From the sequence record OR979722.1: DNA of 39,424 nt; one strand, 5' to 3'. Made by a program: the position numbers and the translations under genes. The notes beneath the pieces are model-generated. The model was not told where the DNA came from. It saw only the letters and a program-made list of their open reading frames with translations, and did not search any database. This document shows, piece after piece, positions 1 through 39,424 of the stretch (the stretch's first letter is position 1; each line of letters begins with the position of its first letter). Source of the stretch: Escherichia phage ETEP21B.

Positions 1-145
1 GTGTTACCACTAGATATGGGGCTTAGGGTGACTTAGTGATACTATATGTGGGCCTCTATGTGTCCCTATCTGTAATCACCTAGAGTCACCACCTAGAGTC
101 ACCACCTAGAGTCACCACCTAGAGTCACCACCTAGAGTCACCACC
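1..145. repeat. Left direct terminal repeat (DTR); identical to 39280-39424. True repeat probably extends to about 184 because the right copy is cut by the window end
   Basis: Exact match of window start to window end read by eye; core GTGTCCCTATCTGT resembles the T7 terminal-repeat sequence. Confidence 0.85.
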
Positions 146-184
146 TAGAGTCACCACCTAGATTCACCACCTAGAGTCACCACC
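77..184. repeat. Tandem array of about 8 copies of 13-bp unit CACCTAGAGTCAC (one variant copy CACCTAGATTCAC) at the inner edge of the terminal repeat
   Basis: Head-to-tail perfect copies visible directly in the sequence; same unit repeated at 39356-39424. Confidence 0.9.
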
Positions 185-381
185 TTATGTCAGACCAGTG
201 ACCTCTATCCTTATGTTAACCTTCAGTCGGTGCCTTCAGTTTATCAGTGACCAGTAGGCTTAGTCACAAAGGGATTCACTATCTTACTCTGTTTAGCAGT
301 CTCTGAGTAATGAGAGAGACACAAATAGAATTGACTGAGTGCCTATAGTGCCTTAAAGGTGACTAAGAGTCAATCCCTGAT

Positions 382-404
382 TAATGCGACTCACTAATGG
401 GATA
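382..404 (+). promoter_or_regulatory. Phage RNAP promoter (phiOL-like), TAATGCGACTCACTAATGGGATA
   Basis: Match to the T7-type promoter family found 15 times in the window; same position as phiOL in T7. Confidence 0.7.
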
Positions 405-435
405 GGCCGATTATGGTCTAATTATAATCCCTTCC

Positions 436-482
436 TTATAGGCTAACTTAAAGACTACTTAAAGATAACTTAAAGTCTAACT
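436..482. repeat. Three phased copies of ACTTAAAG (about 11-bp spacing) just upstream of the first early promoter
   Basis: aACTTAAAGactACTTAAAGataACTTAAAGtct seen in sequence; two more copies at 38605-38625. Confidence 0.7.
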
Positions 483-487
483 AAGGG

Positions 488-516
488 TTGACTCTAAGAA
501 ACAGCTATGGTTTAAT
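488..516 (+). promoter_or_regulatory. Host sigma70-type early promoter (A1-like): TTGACT, 17-bp spacer, TTTAAT
   Basis: -35/-10 pattern at the position of the T7 A1 promoter; -10 is weak. Confidence 0.45.
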
Positions 517-623
517 AGCTACCAGTTGAGAGACACAACGCTAACAACTACCAGACAAGACCTAGAGTTATCTGGTAAGGCTGAAGGGTCTCAAGTAGTC
601 ATCAACCAGACATACGAAAGTGG

Positions 624-652
624 TTGACTCAACGAAAGCAATAGCGTAGTAT
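624..652 (+). promoter_or_regulatory. Host sigma70-type early promoter: TTGACT, 17-bp spacer, TAGTAT
   Basis: Good -35/-10 hexamers and spacing; early leader region. Confidence 0.55.
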
Positions 653-874
653 AGCAGTCCTCAACACAAAGTAACCCTCTGAAACAACACGAGGTGTCAT
701 GGTGAAACAAGTGTTGATTAGTAGTAAGGTCGCTATCGGCTTCCACGGTAGCAGTTCGGGAAGGCACTAAAGCCTAACAAGTGGTTGACCACCACGAGAC
801 ATTAAGCGCCCACGAGTGGGAACAACGCGGAGTCAGACGGTCGCCCACTGAGGGGCTATAGCTCACAAATCAGG

Positions 875-904
875 TTGACAAGCTGATAAGAAAAGATGTA
901 AGAT
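875..904 (+). promoter_or_regulatory. Host sigma70-type early promoter: TTGACA, 18-bp spacer, TAAGAT
   Basis: Consensus -35 and good -10; resembles T7 A2/A3 promoters (TTGACAACATGAAGTAA...TAAGAT). Confidence 0.6.
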
Positions 905-1001
905 GTACGACATAACGTTCTCGTGAAGTCCCACACTGAAAGGGACTCGGTGCTAACAAACCTGCACTTAAAGCTCTTTAACAATTTGGATAAATAGCAC
1001 T

Positions 1002-1033
1002 CTTGAGATGACGGCACTAGCGATTAACTCAAG
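1002..1033 (+). promoter_or_regulatory. RNase III processing hairpin upstream of gene 0.3 (R0.3-like)
   Basis: CTTGAG...CTCAAG inverted repeat; surrounding leader CTCTTTAACAAT...AACTCAAGG parallels the T7 R0.3 region as I remember it. Confidence 0.5.
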
Positions 1034-1094
1034 GTGACTCGAAAGAGAAGCCTTTATGATAATCACTGTAACCAACATCGAGGAAATCATCACC

Positions 1095-1553
1095 ATGATT
1101 CACACTAAAGAGCAAGCTAACGTTTTCTATGTACTGGTAAGCGCATTCCGTTCTAACCTCGACGATGAGGTCAACATGAGTCGCCACCGTCACATGGTGA
1201 ACAACTTGCGCAACGCACCGGGTCTCTATGGTAGCGTTGAGTCTACTGATTTAACTGGCTGTTACCGCGAAGCCATCTCAAGCGCACCGACTGAAGAGAA
1301 AACAATCCGTGTACGTTGTAAAGACAAGGCACAGGTTCTCAATGTCGCACGTCTGGCTTGTAACGAGTGGGAACAAGATTGCGTACTGGTCTATAAGTCA
1401 CAGACTCACACGGCTGGCTTAGTGTACGCTAAAGGCATCGACGGGTACAAAGCTGAACGTCTGCACGGTAGCTTCCAGCGCATCCCTAAAGGTGCACCAA
1501 TCCAAGGCTGCTTCACGGTTGACGAGTTCGGTAAATACTGGCAGGTAGCATAA
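1095..1553 (+). CDS. 0.3: S-adenosylmethionine-degrading anti-restriction protein (T3 gene 0.3 SAMase type), 152 aa
   Basis: Translation ...ANVFYVLVSAFRSNL..VNMSRHRHMV..GLYGSVESTDLTGCYREAISSAPTEEK..CKDKAQ..NVARLACNEWEQDCVLVYKSQTHTAGLVYAKGIDGYKAERL matches T3 SAMase from memory; start chosen at the ATG after GAGGAA rather than the track start 1056. Confidence 0.8.
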   Translation: MIHTKEQANVFYVLVSAFRSNLDDEVNMSRHRHMVNNLRNAPGLYGSVESTDLTGCYREAISSAPTEEKTIRVRCKDKAQVLNVARLACNEWEQDCVLVYKSQTHTAGLVYAKGIDGYKAERLHGSFQRIPKGAPIQGCFTVDEFGKYWQVA

Positions 1554-1554
1554 C

Positions 1555-1752
1555 ATGGTCGCACTCTTCGTAATCACTGTGTACGCTCTGATTGGGGCGT
1601 ACTTCCTTCGAGACTTCCGCAAGGGTCTCAAGGTACACAAGGCTAACTTCTCGCACTTGAAGTATGGCTTTCTACCACGATTCACAGTCCGTGAACGCAA
1701 TGGGCGCTTTAAGGCTAACAAGGTTGGTATCTTCTATGTTGCAACACACTGA
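1555..1752 (+). CDS. Small early protein, 65 aa, hydrophobic N-terminus (gene 0.4-0.6 region)
   Basis: ORF immediately after gene 0.3 stop (TAACATG); position of T7 genes 0.4-0.6; no homology recognised. Confidence 0.5.
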   Translation: MVALFVITVYALIGAYFLRDFRKGLKVHKANFSHLKYGFLPRFTVRERNGRFKANKVGIFYVATH

Positions 1753-1900
1753 TAGTTTAACTAAGAAAGTTCTGTACACACTGGCATATGGTGCTACCAA
1801 CAAGACTCTAATGAGGGCATTGCACCTGAAGCGGATACCCGCCAGAAAGGTAGCAAAGGCATGTAAAGAAGCACGTTTAATCCTCAATTCTCTTTCTTAA
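1664..1900 (+). CDS. Possible small early protein overlapping the previous ORF in another frame; start uncertain (alternative ATGs at 1700, 1736, 1811)
   Basis: ORF fills the gap before gene 0.7; weak RBS; T7 has overlapping 0.6A/0.6B here. Confidence 0.3.
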   Translation: MAFYHDSQSVNAMGALRLTRLVSSMLQHTDSLTKKVLYTLAYGATNKTLMRALHLKRIPARKVAKACKEARLILNSLS

Positions 1901-1920
1901 ACTCAATAGGACACAATCTA

Positions 1921-3024
1921 ATGAACTACACCGACATTCAGGCACGTCTGGCAATCATCAAGTCACTCCCGCTTAGCGAACTGGACAAGCGCCAGCCTCT
2001 TCTGGTTGCACTGGCTGCTGACATCGTGAACGGTGAGACTAGTGACGGTAACGACACAGACGGGTCGCAGGGTCTTGAGTATCAGGACTGGTGGCACACT
2101 TTGGGTGCACTCATGCGTAATGCTGGGTTCCACCTGCTGGGTAATGGTCACTTCAGTGCGGCCTACTCGCACGAAATGTTACCGGGTCGAGTCATCAAGG
2201 TTGGCTTTAAGAAAGAGGATTCAGGCGCTGCTTACACGGCCTTCTGCCGGATGCACCAAGGTCGAGCGGGTATCCCTAACATCTATCACGTAGCACGTCA
2301 CGCTGGCTGTTATACGGTCGTACTGGACAAGCTGTTAGCATGTGACCGCTATGCTAATGATACACACGGGAACTATGCGAGTGCTGCCCGTGAGTTCATT
2401 GAGTGTACTGGCGGTGATGCTGAAGAGTACGCACAGTTTGTTAGCATGGAGTTCATCGAAACGTGCAAGATGATTCGTGAGTTCTTCTACGGGATTGCAT
2501 CATTCGACATGCACAGCGGTAACATCATGTTCGATGAGAACGATGTCGCTTACATCACTGACCCGGTTAGTTTCTCTCATGACCGTGAACGTGAGGGTGG
2601 TTTCCCGTTAGACCCTGAAGCATTGATTGCAGAGGTCGAGGCGATAGCTAACGAGCGCATCATTGAACGGTGTCGCAACCGTAAGGCAAAGCGTGACCCG
2701 AGCGGCACATTCCGCATCAACCGTAAGGCCAACATGAAGCGCCGCAAGCGTAACCGTAAACACGCCGAACGCGTGGCTAAACGCGACCGCTTACACTTTA
2801 TGGCAATCCGTAGGGAACGTGGTGTAATCGAACGAAACGAGCGCCGCGCTGAGATGCTCATGGGGTCTGATTGGCATAACTTCTGGTTGCACAATGGCAA
2901 CGCAACGGTACGCAAGGTTGACCAAGTGAACGGCCTTAAGTGGCAACTAGGGGACCGCCTAGCAATCCAAGCTGGTCTCCCTCTGAATATCGACAAGGTA
3001 CTTGACGCTCAACTGATGGGCTGA
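1921..3024 (+). CDS. 0.7: Serine/threonine protein kinase and host transcription shut-off protein (gp0.7), 367 aa
   Basis: Strong similarity to T7 gp0.7 (NGHFSAAYSH, VIKVGFKKEDSGAAYTAFCRM, FDMHSGNIMF, YITDPVSFS). Confidence 0.92.
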   Translation: MNYTDIQARLAIIKSLPLSELDKRQPLLVALAADIVNGETSDGNDTDGSQGLEYQDWWHTLGALMRNAGFHLLGNGHFSAAYSHEMLPGRVIKVGFKKEDSGAAYTAFCRMHQGRAGIPNIYHVARHAGCYTVVLDKLLACDRYANDTHGNYASAAREFIECTGGDAEEYAQFVSMEFIETCKMIREFFYGIASFDMHSGNIMFDENDVAYITDPVSFSHDREREGGFPLDPEALIAEVEAIANERIIERCRNRKAKRDPSGTFRINRKANMKRRKRNRKHAERVAKRDRLHFMAIRRERGVIERNERRAEMLMGSDWHNFWLHNGNATVRKVDQVNGLKWQLGDRLAIQAGLPLNIDKVLDAQLMG

Positions 3025-3097
3025 TAAGGTGTATCTTCAAGGTCGGCACTGACTGCTGGCCTTTATAGATAAACTTTCTTAACAACGTGAGGCAACA

Positions 3098-5749
3098 ATG
3101 ACTAACGTAATCAACGCACCAAAGAATGACTTCTCTGACATCGCTAACGCAATCCAGCCGTACAACATTCTGGCTGACCATTACGGTGCACAGCTTGCAG
3201 CTACACAGCTTGAGTTGGAACATGAAGCGCACACTGAGGGCGAGAAGCGTTTCCTTAAGGCAATGGAACGTCAAATCAAAGCGGGTGAGTTCGGTGATAA
3301 CGCAGTAGCTAAACCTCTCCTGTCATCCCTCGCACCGAAGTTCATCGAAGCGTGGGGCGCATGGTTCACCGAGGTGGAAGCGAAGCGTGGCAAGCGTCCA
3401 GTAGCCTACAATCTGGTACAGAAGGTTGCACCTGAAGCGGCAGCTTTCATCACATTGAAGGTCACACTAGCTTGTTTGACGAAAGAAGAGTTCACCAATC
3501 TGCAATCGGTCGCCACTAAGATTGGTCGAAGCATTGAGGATGAACTGCGTTTTGGTCGCATCCGTGACGAAGAGGCGAAGCACTTTAAGAACCACGTACA
3601 GGAGGCACTGAACAAGCGCGTTGGTATCGTCTACAAGAAAGCATTCATGCAAGCCGTAGAAGGCAAGATGCTTGATGCTGGTCAACTGCAAACCAAGTGG
3701 ACTACATGGACACCTGAAGAGACTATCCACGTTGGTGTGCGCATGTTGGAACTGCTCATAGGGTCTACTGGTCTCGTTGAGTTACACCGACCGTTTGCTG
3801 GTAACGTTGAGAAGGATGGCGAGTACATCCAGTTAACCGAGCAATACGTTGACCTGTTATCTAAACGTGCTGGCGCTCTGGCTGCGATTGCACCGATGTA
3901 TCAACCTTGTGTAGTCCCTCCGAAGCCTTGGACTTCTCCGGTCGGTGGTGGCTATTGGGCGGCTGGACGCAAGCCTCTCTCTCTGGTTCGCACTGGTTCC
4001 AAGAAGGGACTTGAGCGTTACAACGATGTGTACATGCCTGAAGTCTACAAGGCGGTGAACATCGCACAGAATACTCCTTGGAAGATTAACAAGAAGGTTC
4101 TGGCAGTGGTCAACGAGATTGTGAACTGGAAGCATTGCCCGGTTGAAGATGTCCCTGCTCTGGAACGTGGTGAACTGCCTGTCAAACCTGAAGACATCGA
4201 CACGAACGAGGCGTCACTCAAAGCGTGGAAGAAAGCGGCCTCCGCAATCTACCGCAAAGAGAAGGCACGAGTGTCACGCCGCATGAGCATGGAGTTCATG
4301 TTAGGTCAGGCCAATAAGTTCGCACAGTTTAAAGCTATCTGGTTCCCGATGAACATGGACTGGCGCGGTCGAGTGTATGCAGTCCCAATGTTTAACCCGC
4401 AAGGCAACGACATGACCAAAGGGCTGCTGACCTTGGCTAAAGGTAAACCAATCGGTGTCGATGGGTACTACTGGCTGAAGATTCACGGTGCTAACACTGC
4501 TGGTGTGGACAAGGTGGACTTTGCAGAACGCATCAAGTTCATTGAGGACAATCACGAGAACATCATGAGCGTTGCGGCTGACCCTATCGCTAACACTTGG
4601 TGGGCTGAACAAGACTCTCCGTTCTGCTTCCTCGCGTTCTGCTTTGAGTATGCGGGAGTCCAGCACCACGGGATGAACTACAACTGCTCTTTACCGCTGG
4701 CGTTCGATGGCTCTTGCTCTGGTATTCAGCACTTCTCCGCGATGCTCCGCGATGAGGTCGGTGGTCGTGCGGTTAACCTGCTTCCAAGCAAAGAGGTCCA
4801 AGACATTTACCGCATCGTTGCTGAACGTGTGAATGAGATTATGCAACAGGATGTAATCAACGGCACTGATAACGAAGTGGAAACCGTGACCAATAAGGAC
4901 ACTGGAGAAATCACTGAGAAGCTCAAGCTAGGAACGAAGGAACTGGCTGGTCAATGGTTGGCATATGGTGTGACTCGCAAGGTCACTAAGCGTTCCGTGA
5001 TGACCTTGGCTTATGGTTCCAAAGAGTACGGCTTCCGTGACCAAGTTCTTGAGGACACCATTCAGCCAGCTATTGACGATGGCAAGGGATTGATGTTCAC
5101 TCAACCGAACCAAGCGGCTGGCTACATGGCTAAACTGATTTGGAACGCGGTAACAGTGACAGTGGTCGCAGCGGTTGAAGCGATGAACTGGCTGAAGTCT
5201 GCGGCTAAACTTCTGGCTGCTGAAGTCAAGGACAAGAAGACCAAAGAGGTGCTTCGCAAACGTTGCGCAGTACATTGGGTAACTCCCGATGGCTTCCCGG
5301 TCTGGCAGGAATACAAGAAGCCAGTACAGACCCGCTTGAACCTGATGTTCCTAGGCCAGATTCGTCTGCAACCTACCGTGAACACCAACAAGGATAGCGG
5401 CATTGATGCACGTAAACAGGAGTCAGGCATCGCACCGAACTTTGTCCACTCAATGGATGGAAGCCACCTGCGAATGACTGTAGTGCGCTCCAATGAGGTC
5501 TACGGTGTGGAATCCTTCGCACTGATTCATGACTCCTTTGGTACTATCCCGGCTGACGCTGGCAACCTGTTTAAAGCTGTACGTGAAACGATGGTGAACA
5601 CCTACGAAGAAAACGATGTACTCGCAGACTTCTATGAACAGTTCGCTGACCAGTTGCACGAGTCACAGCTTGACAAGATGCCTGAGATGCCAGCTAAAGG
5701 CTCCCTCGACCTGCAAGAAATCCTCAAGTCAGACTTCGCGTTTGCTTGA
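3098..5749 (+). CDS. 1: Single-subunit DNA-directed RNA polymerase (T7 RNAP family), 883 aa
   Basis: Collinear with T7 RNAP over its whole length (same 883 aa; motifs PMYQPCVVPPKPW, RGRVYAV, DGSCSGIQHFSAM, specificity loop QPTVNTNKDSGIDA, C-terminal FAFA). Confidence 0.98.
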   Translation: MTNVINAPKNDFSDIANAIQPYNILADHYGAQLAATQLELEHEAHTEGEKRFLKAMERQIKAGEFGDNAVAKPLLSSLAPKFIEAWGAWFTEVEAKRGKRPVAYNLVQKVAPEAAAFITLKVTLACLTKEEFTNLQSVATKIGRSIEDELRFGRIRDEEAKHFKNHVQEALNKRVGIVYKKAFMQAVEGKMLDAGQLQTKWTTWTPEETIHVGVRMLELLIGSTGLVELHRPFAGNVEKDGEYIQLTEQYVDLLSKRAGALAAIAPMYQPCVVPPKPWTSPVGGGYWAAGRKPLSLVRTGSKKGLERYNDVYMPEVYKAVNIAQNTPWKINKKVLAVVNEIVNWKHCPVEDVPALERGELPVKPEDIDTNEASLKAWKKAASAIYRKEKARVSRRMSMEFMLGQANKFAQFKAIWFPMNMDWRGRVYAVPMFNPQGNDMTKGLLTLAKGKPIGVDGYYWLKIHGANTAGVDKVDFAERIKFIEDNHENIMSVAADPIANTWWAEQDSPFCFLAFCFEYAGVQHHGMNYNCSLPLAFDGSCSGIQHFSAMLRDEVGGRAVNLLPSKEVQDIYRIVAERVNEIMQQDVINGTDNEVETVTNKDTGEITEKLKLGTKELAGQWLAYGVTRKVTKRSVMTLAYGSKEYGFRDQVLEDTIQPAIDDGKGLMFTQPNQAAGYMAKLIWNAVTVTVVAAVEAMNWLKSAAKLLAAEVKDKKTKEVLRKRCAVHWVTPDGFPVWQEYKKPVQTRLNLMFLGQIRLQPTVNTNKDSGIDARKQESGIAPNFVHSMDGSHLRMTVVRSNEVYGVESFALIHDSFGTIPADAGNLFKAVRETMVNTYEENDVLADFYEQFADQLHESQLDKMPEMPAKGSLDLQEILKSDFAFA

Positions 5750-15279: not shown

Positions 15280-15615
15280 ATGGGAGGCGTTACTACGCTT
15301 AGGTTTCACACTATGCCGACTGGCTGTGTCGTCTGCGTCTCCCATAAGAGGAACAAAGATGGTTACTTCCGGTACAGCGTAGGGTCATCCAGAAAGGGTG
15401 AGAAGATGGCGTTTATGTTCCACCGATTCGTGTGGGAGAACGTCAACGGAAAGATACCAGAAGGGTATGAGATAGACCATCTATGCCTAAACCGTGGGTG
15501 CTGTAACGTAGAGCACCTACAGTGTATCCCCAAGCGGGAACATGTAATCAAGACTAACCGAGAGCGGAAGGTCATCACATTGAAAGCAAAGGAGAAATAT
15601 CATGGCTATTACTAA
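15280..15615 (+). CDS. HNH endonuclease (homing-endonuclease-like), 111 aa
   Basis: HNH motif EIDHLCLNRGCCNVEHLQ with upstream HRFVWE; GAGGAGG RBS; lies between DNA polymerase and gene 5.5. Confidence 0.8.
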   Translation: MGGVTTLRFHTMPTGCVVCVSHKRNKDGYFRYSVGSSRKGEKMAFMFHRFVWENVNGKIPEGYEIDHLCLNRGCCNVEHLQCIPKREHVIKTNRERKVITLKAKEKYHGYY

Positions 15616-15886: not shown

Positions 15887-16095
15887 TGGGTGAATATCTT
15901 CGTGTACTGGCGGCTATCAAAAGCTGCCCTAAGACCTTTCAGTCTAACTACGTGCGCAACAATGCGTCACTGGTGGCTGAGGCTGCGAGCCGTGGTCATA
16001 TCTCTTGCCTATCAGTCGATGGGCGTAATGCTGGCGCTTGGGAAGTAACAGGCGCTGGCGTCCGTTTCCTGAAGAAGATGGGAGGTTGCGTATGA
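15886..16095 (+). CDS. 5.7: gp5.7-like protein, 69 aa
   Basis: LAAIKSCPKTFQSNYVRNNASLVAEAASRGHISCL matches T7 gp5.7. Confidence 0.9.
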   Translation: MGEYLRVLAAIKSCPKTFQSNYVRNNASLVAEAASRGHISCLSVDGRNAGAWEVTGAGVRFLKKMGGCV

Positions 16096-16277
16096 GTCTG
16101 CACACAGACAACGTTACAGTGACCCGTGAGGCGTGGAACGACATGCAAGCATACATTCAATCACTGGAGAAGAAAGCTGAGAAGCTGGACGCTCTGGAGG
16201 CTGGTGGTGTGGACAATTGGTCCGGCTACTGGTTCTCTATGGAAGAGGCTGGTCTCACAGGGGAGGACGACTTATGA
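16092..16277 (+). CDS. 5.9: gp5.9-like protein (RecBCD inhibitor in T7), 61 aa
   Basis: AWNDMQAYIQSLEKK resembles T7 gp5.9; start at ATG after GGAGG. Confidence 0.75.
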   Translation: MSLHTDNVTVTREAWNDMQAYIQSLEKKAEKLDALEAGGVDNWSGYWFSMEEAGLTGEDDL

Positions 16278-35698: not shown

Positions 35699-36256
35699 AT
35701 GGCTACTGTAAACTCAAGAACCCGTACCATCTGGACTATCAATGGTCGCTCACCGGACAGCCGGGATATGTACGACCGAAACAATGTGGGCCTTCGTGTT
35801 GGGCGTATCGACATCCCAGCTTCAGAAATGGTCAAGGTAGATGGCTATGACAAGGTTGAATATGTTGTTCAACTGAGTGACGGCACAACCGAGCAACATG
35901 CTACCTTTGAGACCCTGATGTCCACTTGGGGTGGCTCCGTCGAGTCTAAACCGGGTAGTGGGTTCATGACTGTATTTCTGGATGAGCAAAGCTCTGAGCG
36001 TCTCGGTATGGTTCGAATCGACGTATACAAAGAGTGGACTGGTGCTGACCCTGAACCGGAAGGCGGTATGGATTCGCTAGTTAGTGCAACGCTTTCTGCG
36101 TCTGATAGTGCATTTGGTACACAGTTCGTGGACAGCGAAGGAAAGAGCGCTTCCGTTATGTTCCAGCCTAGTAACATCGACGGGGCTGTATCTAAGACAG
36201 ACACCATCAAGGCTCTGGAGAAGCGCATCGCTGCCTTAGAGAAACCTGCCGAGTAA
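35699..36256 (+). CDS. Hypothetical protein, 185 aa, acidic, no recognisable motif; extra gene between spanins and terminase
   Basis: Clean ORF with AAGGAG 8 nt upstream, start overlapping the 18.5 stop (TAACATG); I recall no gene at this position in T7 or T3. Confidence 0.7.
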   Translation: MATVNSRTRTIWTINGRSPDSRDMYDRNNVGLRVGRIDIPASEMVKVDGYDKVEYVVQLSDGTTEQHATFETLMSTWGGSVESKPGSGFMTVFLDEQSSERLGMVRIDVYKEWTGADPEPEGGMDSLVSATLSASDSAFGTQFVDSEGKSASVMFQPSNIDGAVSKTDTIKALEKRIAALEKPAE

Positions 36257-38055: not shown

Positions 38056-38505
38056 ATGAGAGTGGCAATTGACCCTATCAGTGGTTGCCACAACTTCCTT
38101 GGGTGTAAGACTTCGGGTGGCTACGGTAGAATCCGTGTAGGTGGTGTCCATTGGATGGCCCACAGATACGCTCTATCAGTTCACCTGAAGCGTCCACTAG
38201 AGGAAGGCTGTGTGGTAATGCACTTATGTGATAACCCTGCCTGTGTTAACCCTGAGCATCTCAGAGAGGGAACTCAGAAGGAGAACATGCAGGACTGTAA
38301 GGACAAGGGAAGGATGCACAAGGCTACAGGCCCTAGAGCACCTCGTCGTCCGTACATCAATAAAATCAACCAGCGATACAATGAGAGACTTAAGGCTGTC
38401 CTTGAGGCCGATGGGTCTGACTTGCAGGTCGCTAAGAAGCTGGGCCTGAACCTACAGTGGGTCAAGAAGGCTCGTAAAGGTAAACTAGTTATGCAAGAAG
38501 TGTGA
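38056..38505 (+). CDS. HNH endonuclease with C-terminal helix-turn-helix-like region, 149 aa
   Basis: Motif GYGRIRVGGVHWMAHRYA...HLCDNPACVNPEHL..GTQKEN; AAGGAGGT RBS; immediately downstream of terminase. Confidence 0.8.
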   Translation: MRVAIDPISGCHNFLGCKTSGGYGRIRVGGVHWMAHRYALSVHLKRPLEEGCVVMHLCDNPACVNPEHLREGTQKENMQDCKDKGRMHKATGPRAPRRPYINKINQRYNERLKAVLEADGSDLQVAKKLGLNLQWVKKARKGKLVMQEV

Positions 38506-39279: not shown

Positions 39280-39424
39280 GTGTTACCACTAGATATGGGG
39301 CTTAGGGTGACTTAGTGATACTATATGTGGGCCTCTATGTGTCCCTATCTGTAATCACCTAGAGTCACCACCTAGAGTCACCACCTAGAGTCACCACCTA
39401 GAGTCACCACCTAGAGTCACCACC
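39280..39424. repeat. Right direct terminal repeat (truncated by window end), includes at least 5 copies of the 13-bp tandem unit from 39356
   Basis: Exact identity to 1-145. Confidence 0.85.

What the first reader, a model, noticed from the sequence alone, without database searches (positions are those of the whole stretch)
1095..1553. T3-type SAM-degrading anti-restriction gene in an otherwise T7-like early region
The first expressed gene encodes a 152-aa protein matching T3 gene 0.3 (SAMase, now described as a SAM lyase) rather than the T7 DNA-mimic Ocr. Yet the surrounding leader, including the R0.3-like hairpin, parallels the T7 leader, which indicates modular exchange of anti-restriction strategies. 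SAM depletion also affects host methylation and SAM-dependent defences.
Basis: partly seen in the sequence, partly recalled or inferred. Interest (0 to 1): 0.55.

Follow-up and report, generated by a model that had tools for sequence, protein, structure and literature searches.

The report
T3-type SAM lyase in BA14-like phage
The first gene of this complete T7-family phage genome encodes the well-known T3-type enzyme that destroys the host's S-adenosylmethionine to escape restriction; this is the ordinary, already annotated state for its genus (Berlinvirus, BA14-like), not a T3 gene dropped into a T7 genome.

Summary
Observation confirmed. ORF 1095-1553 (+) encodes 152 aa and is a T3-type SAM lyase (Pfam PF23780, E 8e-44). 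It matches the solved T3 enzyme 7OCK/8BB1 at E 5e-92, is 136/152 identical to T3 gp0.3 and shows no similarity to T7 Ocr. Every residue with published mutational or structural evidence for catalysis (E68, Q94, D95) or MetK binding (T4, N9, Q103, T104, H105) is kept.

The window is a whole BA14-like Berlinvirus genome. Its gp0.3 is 100% identical to that of BA14, BP12A and vB_CECAV_058, and the gene order 0.3-0.6-0.7-1 is the T3 order. T7 genes 0.3, 0.4 and 0.5 are absent. The R0.3 hairpin is shared equally by T3 and T7. Only the RNA polymerase specificity loop and the phage promoter core are T7-like.

Relative to BA14 and BP12A the gene is inherited with its flanks (dS 0.10-0.12). Across the genus the slot is modular. 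Y. pestis phages lack the gene, Shigella A7 and E. coli P151 carry Ocr and SAMase in tandem, and SAMase alleles differ by dS about 1.0-1.1 where the polymerase differs by 0.32-0.41. The breakpoints examined lie at hairpin or gene ends.

Already known; low interest.

The parts
1095..1553 (+). Gene 0.3: T3-type S-adenosylmethionine lyase (SAMase), 152 aa
   Evidence: Pfam PF23780 E 7.8e-44. PDB 7OCK/8BB1 E 5.2e-92. 136/152 identical to T3 gp0.3 and 100% identical to BA14 gp0.3. E67, E68, Q94, D95, I2, T4, K5, A8, N9, Q103, T104, H105 and T106 are all kept; F3 is H.
1080..1084 (+). Shine-Dalgarno GAGGA, 10 nt upstream of ATG 1095
   Evidence: Read from the sequence. T3 and BA14 have GAGGT/GAGGA at the matching place.
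1176..1553 (+). Probable in-frame internal start (Met28) with its own GAGG at 1167-1170, giving a 125-aa product
   Evidence: The T3 record annotates 'in-frame internal initiation' at the homologous ATG. The motif GATGAGGT(C/G)AA(C/T)ATGAG is conserved in the window, BA14 and T3. Use of this start here is inferred.
1018..1068 (+). R0.3-type RNase III hairpin in the 5' leader of gene 0.3
   Evidence: Aligns with the annotated T3 stem-loop R0.3. Consensus fold of 8 sequences gives 17 pairs, 4 with compensatory changes. Single-sequence fold of 985-1100: z = -2.3. Cleavage was not tested.
875..904 (+). Host sigma-70-type early promoter candidate (TTGACA-18-TAAGAT)
   Evidence: Consensus scan, 10 of 12 matches. 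Corresponds to the fourth 'host RNAP promoter' annotated in BA14. The scan as a whole is not enriched over shuffles.
624..652 (+). Host sigma-70-type early promoter candidate (TTGACT-17-TAGTAT)
   Evidence: Consensus scan. Aligns with the BA14 promoter at 595-631.
488..524 (+). Host early promoter candidate (TTGACT at 488); -10 element uncertain
   Evidence: Aligns with the BA14 'host RNAP promoter' at 460-496. Not picked up by the consensus scan.
382..404 (+). Phage RNA polymerase promoter phiOL (TTAATGCGACTCACTAATGGGAT)
   Evidence: The core CGACTCACTAATGGGA occurs 12 times in the window against 0.38 expected. BA14 annotates phiOL at the matching place.
1555..1752 (+). Gene 0.6 (65 aa), starting 2 nt after the 0.3 stop codon; no R0.5 hairpin between them
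   Evidence: 98% identical to BA14 gp0.6A and 65% to T3 gp0.6; no significant match to T7 gp0.6A. PHROG 2385. Junction sequence.
1921..3024 (+). Gene 0.7 protein kinase, the next conserved early gene and right-hand anchor of the variable slot
   Evidence: 51% identical to T3 and 52% to T7. 95% to BP12A and 73% to BA14.

Best explanation
Gene 0.3 of a BA14-like Berlinvirus encodes a T3-type SAM lyase, and this is the normal state for that lineage.

Proposed course of events:
1. As the left genome end enters the cell, host RNA polymerase transcribes from the A-type promoters (about 488, 624 and 875).
2. RNase III cuts the early transcript in the R0.3 hairpin (1018-1068). This removes the spurious upstream ATG at 1056.
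3. Translation starts at ATG 1095, and probably also at Met28 (ATG 1176).
4. The 17-kDa beta-barrel protein binds host MetK through its N-terminal tail and the beta4-beta5 loop. It cleaves SAM to methylthioadenosine and homoserine lactone, and it also blocks SAM synthesis.
5. Loss of SAM disables SAM-dependent defences (type I restriction-modification, BREX) before the rest of the genome enters.

What is shown here: the ORF, its family membership, conservation of the functional residues, the conserved hairpin, and synteny. What is inferred from work on T3 and T7: transcription, RNase III cleavage, enzyme activity, MetK binding and the anti-defence effect.

Evolution: the gene was inherited together with its flanks within the BA14/BP12A lineage. 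The slot itself is a recombination-prone cassette site across the genus.
For: - Family and identity.
- Residues with published evidence are all present. E68 and Q94 are needed for catalysis, and the double mutant is inactive (bioRxiv 10.1101/2023.02.27.530186; PMC7877911). T4, N9, Q103, T104 and H105 are strictly conserved MetK-binding or tail-stabilising residues.
- Purifying selection: dN/dS of 0.079 against T3 is the lowest of the 13 genes, out of 17 compared, for which the ratio could be computed.
- Identical protein in other phages: BA14, BP12A and vB_CECAV_058 are 100% identical, and 14 phage records are at least 99% identical.
- Vertical inheritance: 0.3 is 97.8% nucleotide-identical to BA14, with the leader at 94.5% and 0.6 at 96.9%. 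A single 95.6% block covers window 874-3300 against BP12A. SAMase dS is 0.10-0.12, against 0.155-0.24 for the RNA polymerase.
- Leader hairpin.
- The T3-like early region of this phage group is published (PMC2579914).
- Anti-BREX and anti-type I function of the T3 enzyme: and PMC8406200.
Against: - No experiment on this protein: activity, MetK binding and anti-restriction are extrapolated from an enzyme that is 89.5% identical.
- F3, a MetK-contacting residue in T3, is H here, and P7 is Q.
- Published work disagrees on the form of the MetK complex: filaments (PMC8406200) or a 4:4 complex.
- The host promoters are consensus matches only, and the scan is not enriched over shuffles (3 found against 3.7 expected).
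- The spacer between the Shine-Dalgarno sequence and ATG 1095 is 10 nt, longer than the 8 nt in T3 and BA14.
Confidence: 0.9

Rival explanations
1. Recent module swap. On this view a T7-like phage lost Ocr and recently gained the T3 SAMase gene by recombination in the conserved leader.
For: - The slot does vary within the genus. Berlin-type phages lack 0.3, with homology breaking at window 1067, the 3' end of the hairpin. A7 and P151 carry Ocr and SAMase in tandem, with hairpin repeats at the module edges.
- The window's SAMase is closer to T3 (89%) than to the SAMases of other Berlinviruses (82% and 68%), although their RNA polymerases are 97-99% identical.
- The polymerase specificity loop and the promoter core are T7-like.
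Against: - There is no T7-specific early gene and no Ocr remnant anywhere in the window.
- gp0.6, next to the SAMase, is also T3-type.
- dS against T3 is 1.16, near saturation, so T3 is not a recent donor.
- Against its nearest relatives the gene is collinear with both flanks at the same identity.
- The R0.3 leader is no closer to T7 than to T3.
Confidence: 0.07
2. The protein acts mainly as a stoichiometric MetK inhibitor, a binding protein that blocks SAM synthesis, with SAM cleavage secondary.
For: The catalytically dead T3 E68Q/Q94A mutant keeps partial anti-BREX activity and binds MetK. The MetK-contact residues are conserved here.
Against: The catalytic residues are equally conserved. 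In T3, both activities are needed for full effect, and T4A, which weakens MetK binding but keeps cleavage, also reduces the effect. This is therefore a question of weighting within the same mechanism, not a separate function.
Confidence: 0.1
3. It is a SAM-dependent methyltransferase, as RefSeq records and PHROG 2226 label this family.
For: Only the database label.
Against: The solved T3 protein is a nine-stranded beta-barrel lyase with no methyltransferase fold. Its products are MTA and homoserine lactone (PMC7877911). The Pfam family is 'S-Adenosylmethionine lyase'. The label is a naming error.
Confidence: 0.01

Closest known systems
Bacteriophage T3 gp0.3 SAM lyase (SAMase; PDB 7OCK, 8BB1)
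   Same: Same length (152 aa) with 136/152 identical residues and no gaps. Same position as the first early gene behind an R0.3 hairpin. Same internal Met28 start. Catalytic and MetK-contact residues are conserved.
   Different: 16 substitutions: F3H, P7Q, C23D, S36N, T37N, A40N, V71I, A81V, P124H, E129R, V130I, L136I, I142V, R147K, R148Y, Q152A. There is no R0.5 hairpin or promoter B after the gene, and 0.6 starts 2 nt after the stop codon. The genome belongs to another genus: polymerase 75% and kinase 51% identical to T3.
gp0.3 of Escherichia phage BA14, Salmonella phage BP12A and vB_CECAV_058 (genus Berlinvirus)
   Same: Protein 100% identical. Gene 97.8% nucleotide-identical to BA14. Same flanks and same gene order.
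   Different: Nothing at the protein level. The genome as a whole is 90-96% identical to these phages and mosaic: the kinase is 95% identical to BP12A but 73% to BA14, and the late region is closest to PhiV-1 at 93.7%.
T7 gp0.3 Ocr (DNA mimic)
   Same: Same slot, same R0.3-type leader and the same targets (type I restriction-modification, BREX).
   Different: No sequence similarity (E = 39) and a different mechanism: Ocr is a DNA mimic that binds the restriction enzyme, whereas this protein depletes the cofactor. Ocr is absent from the window.
Svi3-3 / Orf1 environmental phage SAM lyases (PMC7877911)
   Same: Same chemistry, a unimolecular lyase reaction giving MTA and homoserine lactone. An equivalent glutamate (E69 in Svi3-3, E68 here) and glutamine position the substrate.
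   Different: Barely detectable sequence similarity. Svi3-3 is a trimer with active sites between subunits. It lacks the MetK-binding residues.

Membership tests
T3-type SAM lyase (Pfam PF23780 S-AdoMet_lyase) | Significant full-length match to the family profile, above the curated cut-off | tested here: met
   149.3 bits against a cut-off of 28, E 7.8e-44, profile positions 1-132 of 133.
T3-type SAM lyase (Pfam PF23780 S-AdoMet_lyase) | Close sequence relationship to the structurally and enzymatically characterised T3 enzyme | tested here: met
   E 5.2e-92 to 7OCK/8BB1; 136/152 identical, ungapped.
T3-type SAM lyase (Pfam PF23780 S-AdoMet_lyase) | Substrate-positioning residues E68, Q94 and D95 (T3 numbering) | tested here: met
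   E67, E68, Q94 and D95 are present at identical positions.
T3-type SAM lyase (Pfam PF23780 S-AdoMet_lyase) | MetK-binding residues T4, N9, Q103, T104 and tail-stabilising H105, which are strictly conserved in homologues of at least 30% identity | tested here: met
   All present. Of the wider contact set M1, I2, F3, T4, K5, A8, N9, Q103, T104 and T106, only F3 differs (H).
T3-type SAM lyase (Pfam PF23780 S-AdoMet_lyase) | Cleaves SAM to MTA and homoserine lactone; binds and inhibits MetK | not testable with these tools
   Needs an enzyme assay and a pull-down. Inferred from 89.5% identity to T3 gp0.3.
T3-type SAM lyase (Pfam PF23780 S-AdoMet_lyase) | Nine-stranded beta-barrel fold with two outer helices | not tested
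   No model was built. At 89.5% ungapped identity to a solved chain, the fold is taken as given.
Ocr DNA-mimic anti-restriction protein (T7 gp0.3) | Sequence similarity to Ocr; small, very acidic protein | tested here: not met
   BLASTP E = 39. tblastn of Ocr against all six frames of the window: best E 1.7.
T7-type (Teseptimavirus) early region | Genes 0.3 (ocr), 0.4, 0.5 and 0.6A/B upstream of 0.7 | tested here: not met
   No hits for Ocr, gp0.4, gp0.5 or gp0.6A in the window (E at least 0.17). The gp0.6 present is T3-type at 65% identity.
Genus Berlinvirus (BA14-like Studiervirinae) | Genome-wide collinearity and high identity to type members | tested here: met
   Most proteins are 90-99% identical to BA14 against 36-84% to T3 or T7, gp0.3 excepted at 90% to T3. 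The best DNA hits are all Berlinvirus records.
RNase III processing site of the T7 group (R0.3) | Conserved hairpin with an internal loop upstream of gene 0.3, homologous to the annotated T3 R0.3 | tested here: met
   Alignment with many invariant columns. 17-pair consensus structure with 4 compensatory pairs.
RNase III processing site of the T7 group (R0.3) | Cleavage by host RNase III | not testable with these tools
   Needs 5'-end mapping in rnc+ and rnc- hosts.

The most novel reading that the evidence does not exclude
The gene 0.3 position of Berlinvirus and related Studiervirinae is a hairpin-delimited anti-defence cassette site. On this reading, RNase III-type hairpins (about 50 nt, 77-88% identical between copies) act as portable homology arms. 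Recombination at these arms would let SAM lyase alleles and the Ocr-0.4 module be added, stacked in either order, or lost. Several ancient SAMase allele lineages (dS about 1.0-1.1 to each other and to T3) are shuffled among genomes whose polymerases differ by dS of only 0.32-0.41. The window shows the minimal one-cassette state.
Probability: 0.4. Interest if true: 0.35.

Novelty: already known. Interest (0 to 1): 0.15.

Why it matters
For this window it matters little. The gene is a textbook anti-restriction enzyme, identical in protein sequence to annotated genes of BA14 and several Salmonella and E. coli phages. The T3-like early region of this phage group has been in print since 2008.

There are three practical points:
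- The RefSeq/PHROG label 'SAM-dependent methyltransferase' for this family is wrong.
- The 165-aa start used in some records (for example BP12A) is probably wrong.
- A phage carrying this gene can be expected to resist type I restriction-modification and BREX, which is relevant to host-range prediction and phage therapy.

The wider pattern is a modest lead on how T7-family phages trade anti-defence genes: the gene is lost in Y. pestis phages, Ocr and SAMase are stacked in A7 and P151, and hairpin repeats sit at the module edges.

Tried and rejected
- Ocr hidden elsewhere in the genome: tblastn of T7 Ocr, gp0.4, gp0.5 and gp0.6A against all six frames found nothing.
- Recent transfer from T3: rejected, since dS is 1.16 against T3, in the range of other conserved genes (0.79-1.46).
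- The longer 165-aa ORF from ATG 1056: rejected, because that ATG lies in the invariant 3' internal loop of the R0.3 hairpin, which is also present in T3 and T7 where it is not a start codon.
- Rfam scan of the whole window: no family reached its gathering score, and no hit was returned for the R0.3 hairpin.
- Promoter and terminator consensus scan of 1-3200: not enriched over shuffles, so promoters are assigned only by homology to the BA14 annotation.
- Literature search for BA14 together with SAMase: no open-access hit. My recollection that Hausmann's group reported SAMase induction by BA14 is unverified and is not used.
- Structure prediction and the large protein-database searches were not run, because 89.5% identity to a solved structure already settles the fold and the family.

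Full report
**1. What is at 1095-1553**

The + strand holds an ORF from ATG 1095 to TAA 1551-1553, giving 152 aa.
- It matches Pfam PF23780 (S-adenosylmethionine lyase family) over the whole profile, at 149 bits against a cut-off of 28 and E 7.8e-44. It also matches PHROG 2226 at E 8e-55.
- Against all PDB chains its only real match is the T3 SAM lyase (7OCK, 8BB1), at E 5.2e-92 over residues 1-151.
- Aligned with T3 gp0.3 taken from NC_003298, it has 136 of 152 identical residues and no gaps.
- It has no similarity to T7 Ocr (BLASTP E = 39). Ocr, gp0.4, gp0.5 and gp0.6A of T7 are not encoded anywhere in the window.

**2. Is the enzyme likely to be functional?**

Published mutagenesis of the T3 enzyme points to two sets of residues.
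- E68 and Q94 (and D95) matter for SAM cleavage, and the E68Q/Q94A double mutant is inactive (PMC7877911; bioRxiv 10.1101/2023.02.27.530186).
- The N-terminal tail (M1, I2, F3, T4, K5, A8, N9) and the beta4-beta5 loop (Q103, T104, T106) contact the host SAM synthase MetK. T4, N9, Q103, T104 and H105 are strictly conserved among homologues of at least 30% identity.

All of these residues are present in the window protein except F3, which is H.

Compared with T3, the gene has dN/dS of 0.079. This is the lowest of the 13 genes, out of 17 compared, for which the ratio could be computed. No other protein in the genome is as similar to its T3 counterpart: 90% here against 36-84% elsewhere. The gene is intact and under strong purifying selection.

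**3. Expression signals**

- A GAGGA at 1080-1084 precedes ATG 1095.
- The T3 record annotates an in-frame internal start at Met28. The same ATG (1176) with its own GAGG (1167-1170) is conserved here and in BA14.
- Upstream, 1018-1068 folds into a hairpin that aligns with the annotated T3 R0.3 RNase III site and with the equivalent T7 region. In a consensus fold of eight sequences (window, BA14, BP12A, T3, T7, Berlin and two copies from Shigella phage A7), 17 pairs are predicted and 4 of them show compensatory changes.
- The in-frame ATG at 1056, which creates the 165-aa ORF listed and annotated in BP12A, lies in the invariant CCTTTATGAT motif of the hairpin's 3' internal loop. From my own knowledge of T7, not tested here, RNase III cuts R0.3 in this loop, so 1056 is very unlikely to be a start codon.
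- Host-type promoters are assigned by homology to the BA14 annotation, at about 488, 624 and 875. Two of them also match the sigma-70 consensus. The scan itself is not enriched over shuffles, so these are candidates only.

**4. What genome is this?**

- The first 145 bases recur at 39280-39424, so the window is a complete linear genome with a terminal repeat.
- Most of its proteins are 90-99% identical to Escherichia phage BA14 (genus Berlinvirus), against 36-84% to T3 or T7 (gp0.3 excepted, at 90% to T3).
- The best DNA matches are all Berlinvirus records: BP12A at 95% over the early region and PhiV-1 at 93.7% over the late region. No record in the collection is identical.
- gp0.3 is 100% identical to that of BA14, BP12A and Salmonella phage vB_CECAV_058. 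Fourteen phage records have a protein at least 99% identical.

**5. Is the region 'otherwise T7-like'?**

Largely not.
- The early gene set is the T3 set: SAM lyase, gp0.6 (65% identical to T3 gp0.6, no significant match to T7 gp0.6A), a gp0.65-like ORF, the gp0.7 kinase and the gp1 polymerase.
- The two genes common to all three phages are equidistant from T3 and T7. The kinase is 51% and 52% identical, and the polymerase 75% and 76%.
- The leader segment 901-1094 is 74.7% identical to T3 and 78.6% to T7. The hairpin is thus a shared feature of the subfamily and not a T7 mark.
- Two traits are specifically T7-like. The polymerase specificity loop reads QTRLNLMFLGQ, with the T7 N748-type Asn, where T3 has QKRLDMIFLGQ. 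The phage promoter core is CGACTCACTA(A/T)TGGGA, found 12 times against 0.38 expected, where T3 has CCCTCACTA (the T3 and T7 promoter consensus sequences are from my own knowledge).
- One difference from T3: there is no R0.5 hairpin or promoter B after the gene, and gene 0.6 starts 2 nt after the stop codon.
- The T3-like early region of this phage group was described for Kvp1 in 2008 (PMC2579914).

**6. Modular exchange**

In this genome there is no sign of a recent swap.
- Against BA14, the leader, 0.3 and 0.6 are 94.5%, 97.8% and 96.9% nucleotide-identical.
- Against BP12A, a single block of 95.6% identity runs from 874 to 3300.
- The synonymous divergence of 0.3 is 0.10-0.12, no higher than that of the polymerase (0.155-0.24).
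- Against T3, dS is 1.16, near saturation and within the range of other conserved genes. T3 is not a recent donor.

Across the genus the slot is clearly variable.
- Yersinia pestis phages such as Berlin have no gene 0.3. Homology to the window stops at 1067, the 3' end of the hairpin, and resumes at 1621.
- Shigella phage A7 has Ocr followed by a SAM lyase, with hairpin copies before, between and after the two genes.
- Escherichia phage P151 has an intact but unannotated SAM lyase ORF followed by a T7-like ocr-0.4 module. That module is flanked by 51-nt direct repeats, 88% identical, which are hairpin sequences.
- The SAM lyases of A7, P151 and PYPS50 are 82%, 82% and 68% identical to the window's, less than T3's 89%. 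Their dS is 1.0-1.1, while the polymerase N-terminal 360 residues are 97-99% identical with dS 0.32-0.41.

Several old SAM lyase allele lineages are therefore shuffled among otherwise closely related genomes, and the breakpoints seen in these few genomes lie at hairpin or gene ends. Its specific reading, a T3 gene in a T7 background, does not.

**7. Mechanism**

The mechanism is inferred from T3 and T7.
1. Early transcription by host RNA polymerase runs from the A promoters as the DNA enters.
2. RNase III cleaves at R0.3.
3. Translation starts at 1095, and probably also at 1176.
4. The protein binds MetK and cleaves SAM to methylthioadenosine and homoserine lactone.
5. The resulting lack of SAM disables type I restriction-modification and BREX.

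The steps shown here are the sequence features and their conservation. The biochemical steps are extrapolated from an enzyme that is 89.5% identical.

**8. Verdict**

The feature is real, correctly identified and already known. The framing as a T3 module in a T7-like region is not supported. Interest is low. The cassette pattern at the 0.3 slot in related phages is a modest lead that lies outside this window.

Noticed in passing
window 77-185 and 39356-39424: A 13-bp tandem array (CACCTAGAGTCAC) has 8.4 copies at the left end and 5.3 copies running off the right end. The terminal repeat (1-145 = 39280-39424) ends inside the array, so the true repeat is probably longer (BA14 has 194 bp) and was trimmed or collapsed in assembly.
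   Followed up: partly
window 1056-1058; L009 (BP12A) 669-1166: An in-frame upstream ATG extends the ORF to 165 aa, and the BP12A record annotates that version. The ATG lies in the invariant internal loop of the R0.3 hairpin, so this start is probably a misannotation.
   Followed up: yes
RefSeq records of T3, BA14, Kvp1 and others; PHROG 2226: The T3-type SAM lyase family is labelled 'SAM-dependent methyltransferase' in RefSeq phage records and in PHROGs. This is a naming error that keeps being propagated.
   Followed up: no
L010 (Escherichia phage P151) 1463-2567: An intact 152-aa SAM lyase ORF (1463-1921) is not annotated in the record. It is followed by a T7-like ocr (92% identical to T7 Ocr) and 0.4 (82%). 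This module is flanked by 51-nt direct repeats at 1921-1971 and 2517-2567 (88% identical) that are RNase III-type hairpins.
   Followed up: partly
L008 (Shigella phage A7) 975-1983: Ocr (1075-1419) and SAM lyase (1488-1946) sit in tandem, in the opposite order to P151. Hairpin copies lie at about 1000-1054, 1406-1452 and 1937-1983.
   Followed up: partly
L007 (Yersinia phage Berlin) 855-1263, and about 11 Y. pestis phage records: Y. pestis Berlinviruses have neither SAM lyase nor Ocr. Homology to the window ends exactly at the 3' end of the R0.3 hairpin and resumes in gene 0.6 and gene 0.7. A 76-aa hypothetical ORF fills the gap.
   Followed up: partly
window 728-873: This 146-bp segment of the promoter leader is absent from BP12A, A7 and P151, whose alignments jump from 727 to 874. 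It contains a TTGACC at 785. It may be an extra promoter module or an indel between repeated promoter units.
   Followed up: no
window 15280-15615 and 38056-38505: Two HNH homing-endonuclease ORFs (Pfam HNH_3). The first is 76% identical to T3 gp5.3 and has only a weak match (38%), at a different position, in BA14. The second lies after the terminase gene 19.
   Followed up: partly
window 1921-3024: The gp0.7 kinase is mosaic among close relatives. It is 95% identical to BP12A but only 73% to BA14, while the flanking polymerase is 99% identical to both.
   Followed up: partly
window 3098-5749 and 12 promoter sites (387, 5762, 6266, 8424, 12045, 12699, 17281, 19880, 20874, 25273, 32614, 38577): The RNA polymerase specificity loop is identical to T7's (N748 type). 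The promoter core is CGACTCACTA(A/T)TGGGA, which is T7-like from -12 to -3 but differs at -2/-1.
   Followed up: partly
window 16092-16277: A gp5.9-type RecBCD inhibitor (Pfam PF25708, E 6e-17) is present here. tblastn did not find it in BA14.
   Followed up: no
window 35699-36256: A 185-aa ORF between genes 18.5 and 19 has no Pfam match. It is shared with BA14 (91%) but absent from T3 and T7.
   Followed up: no
window 1664-1900: An ORF overlapping the end of gene 0.6 in another frame matches PHROG 10380 over residues 25-78 and is weakly similar to T3 gp0.65 (39%). The real start is probably internal, near 1736, as in BP12A_02A.
   Followed up: partly
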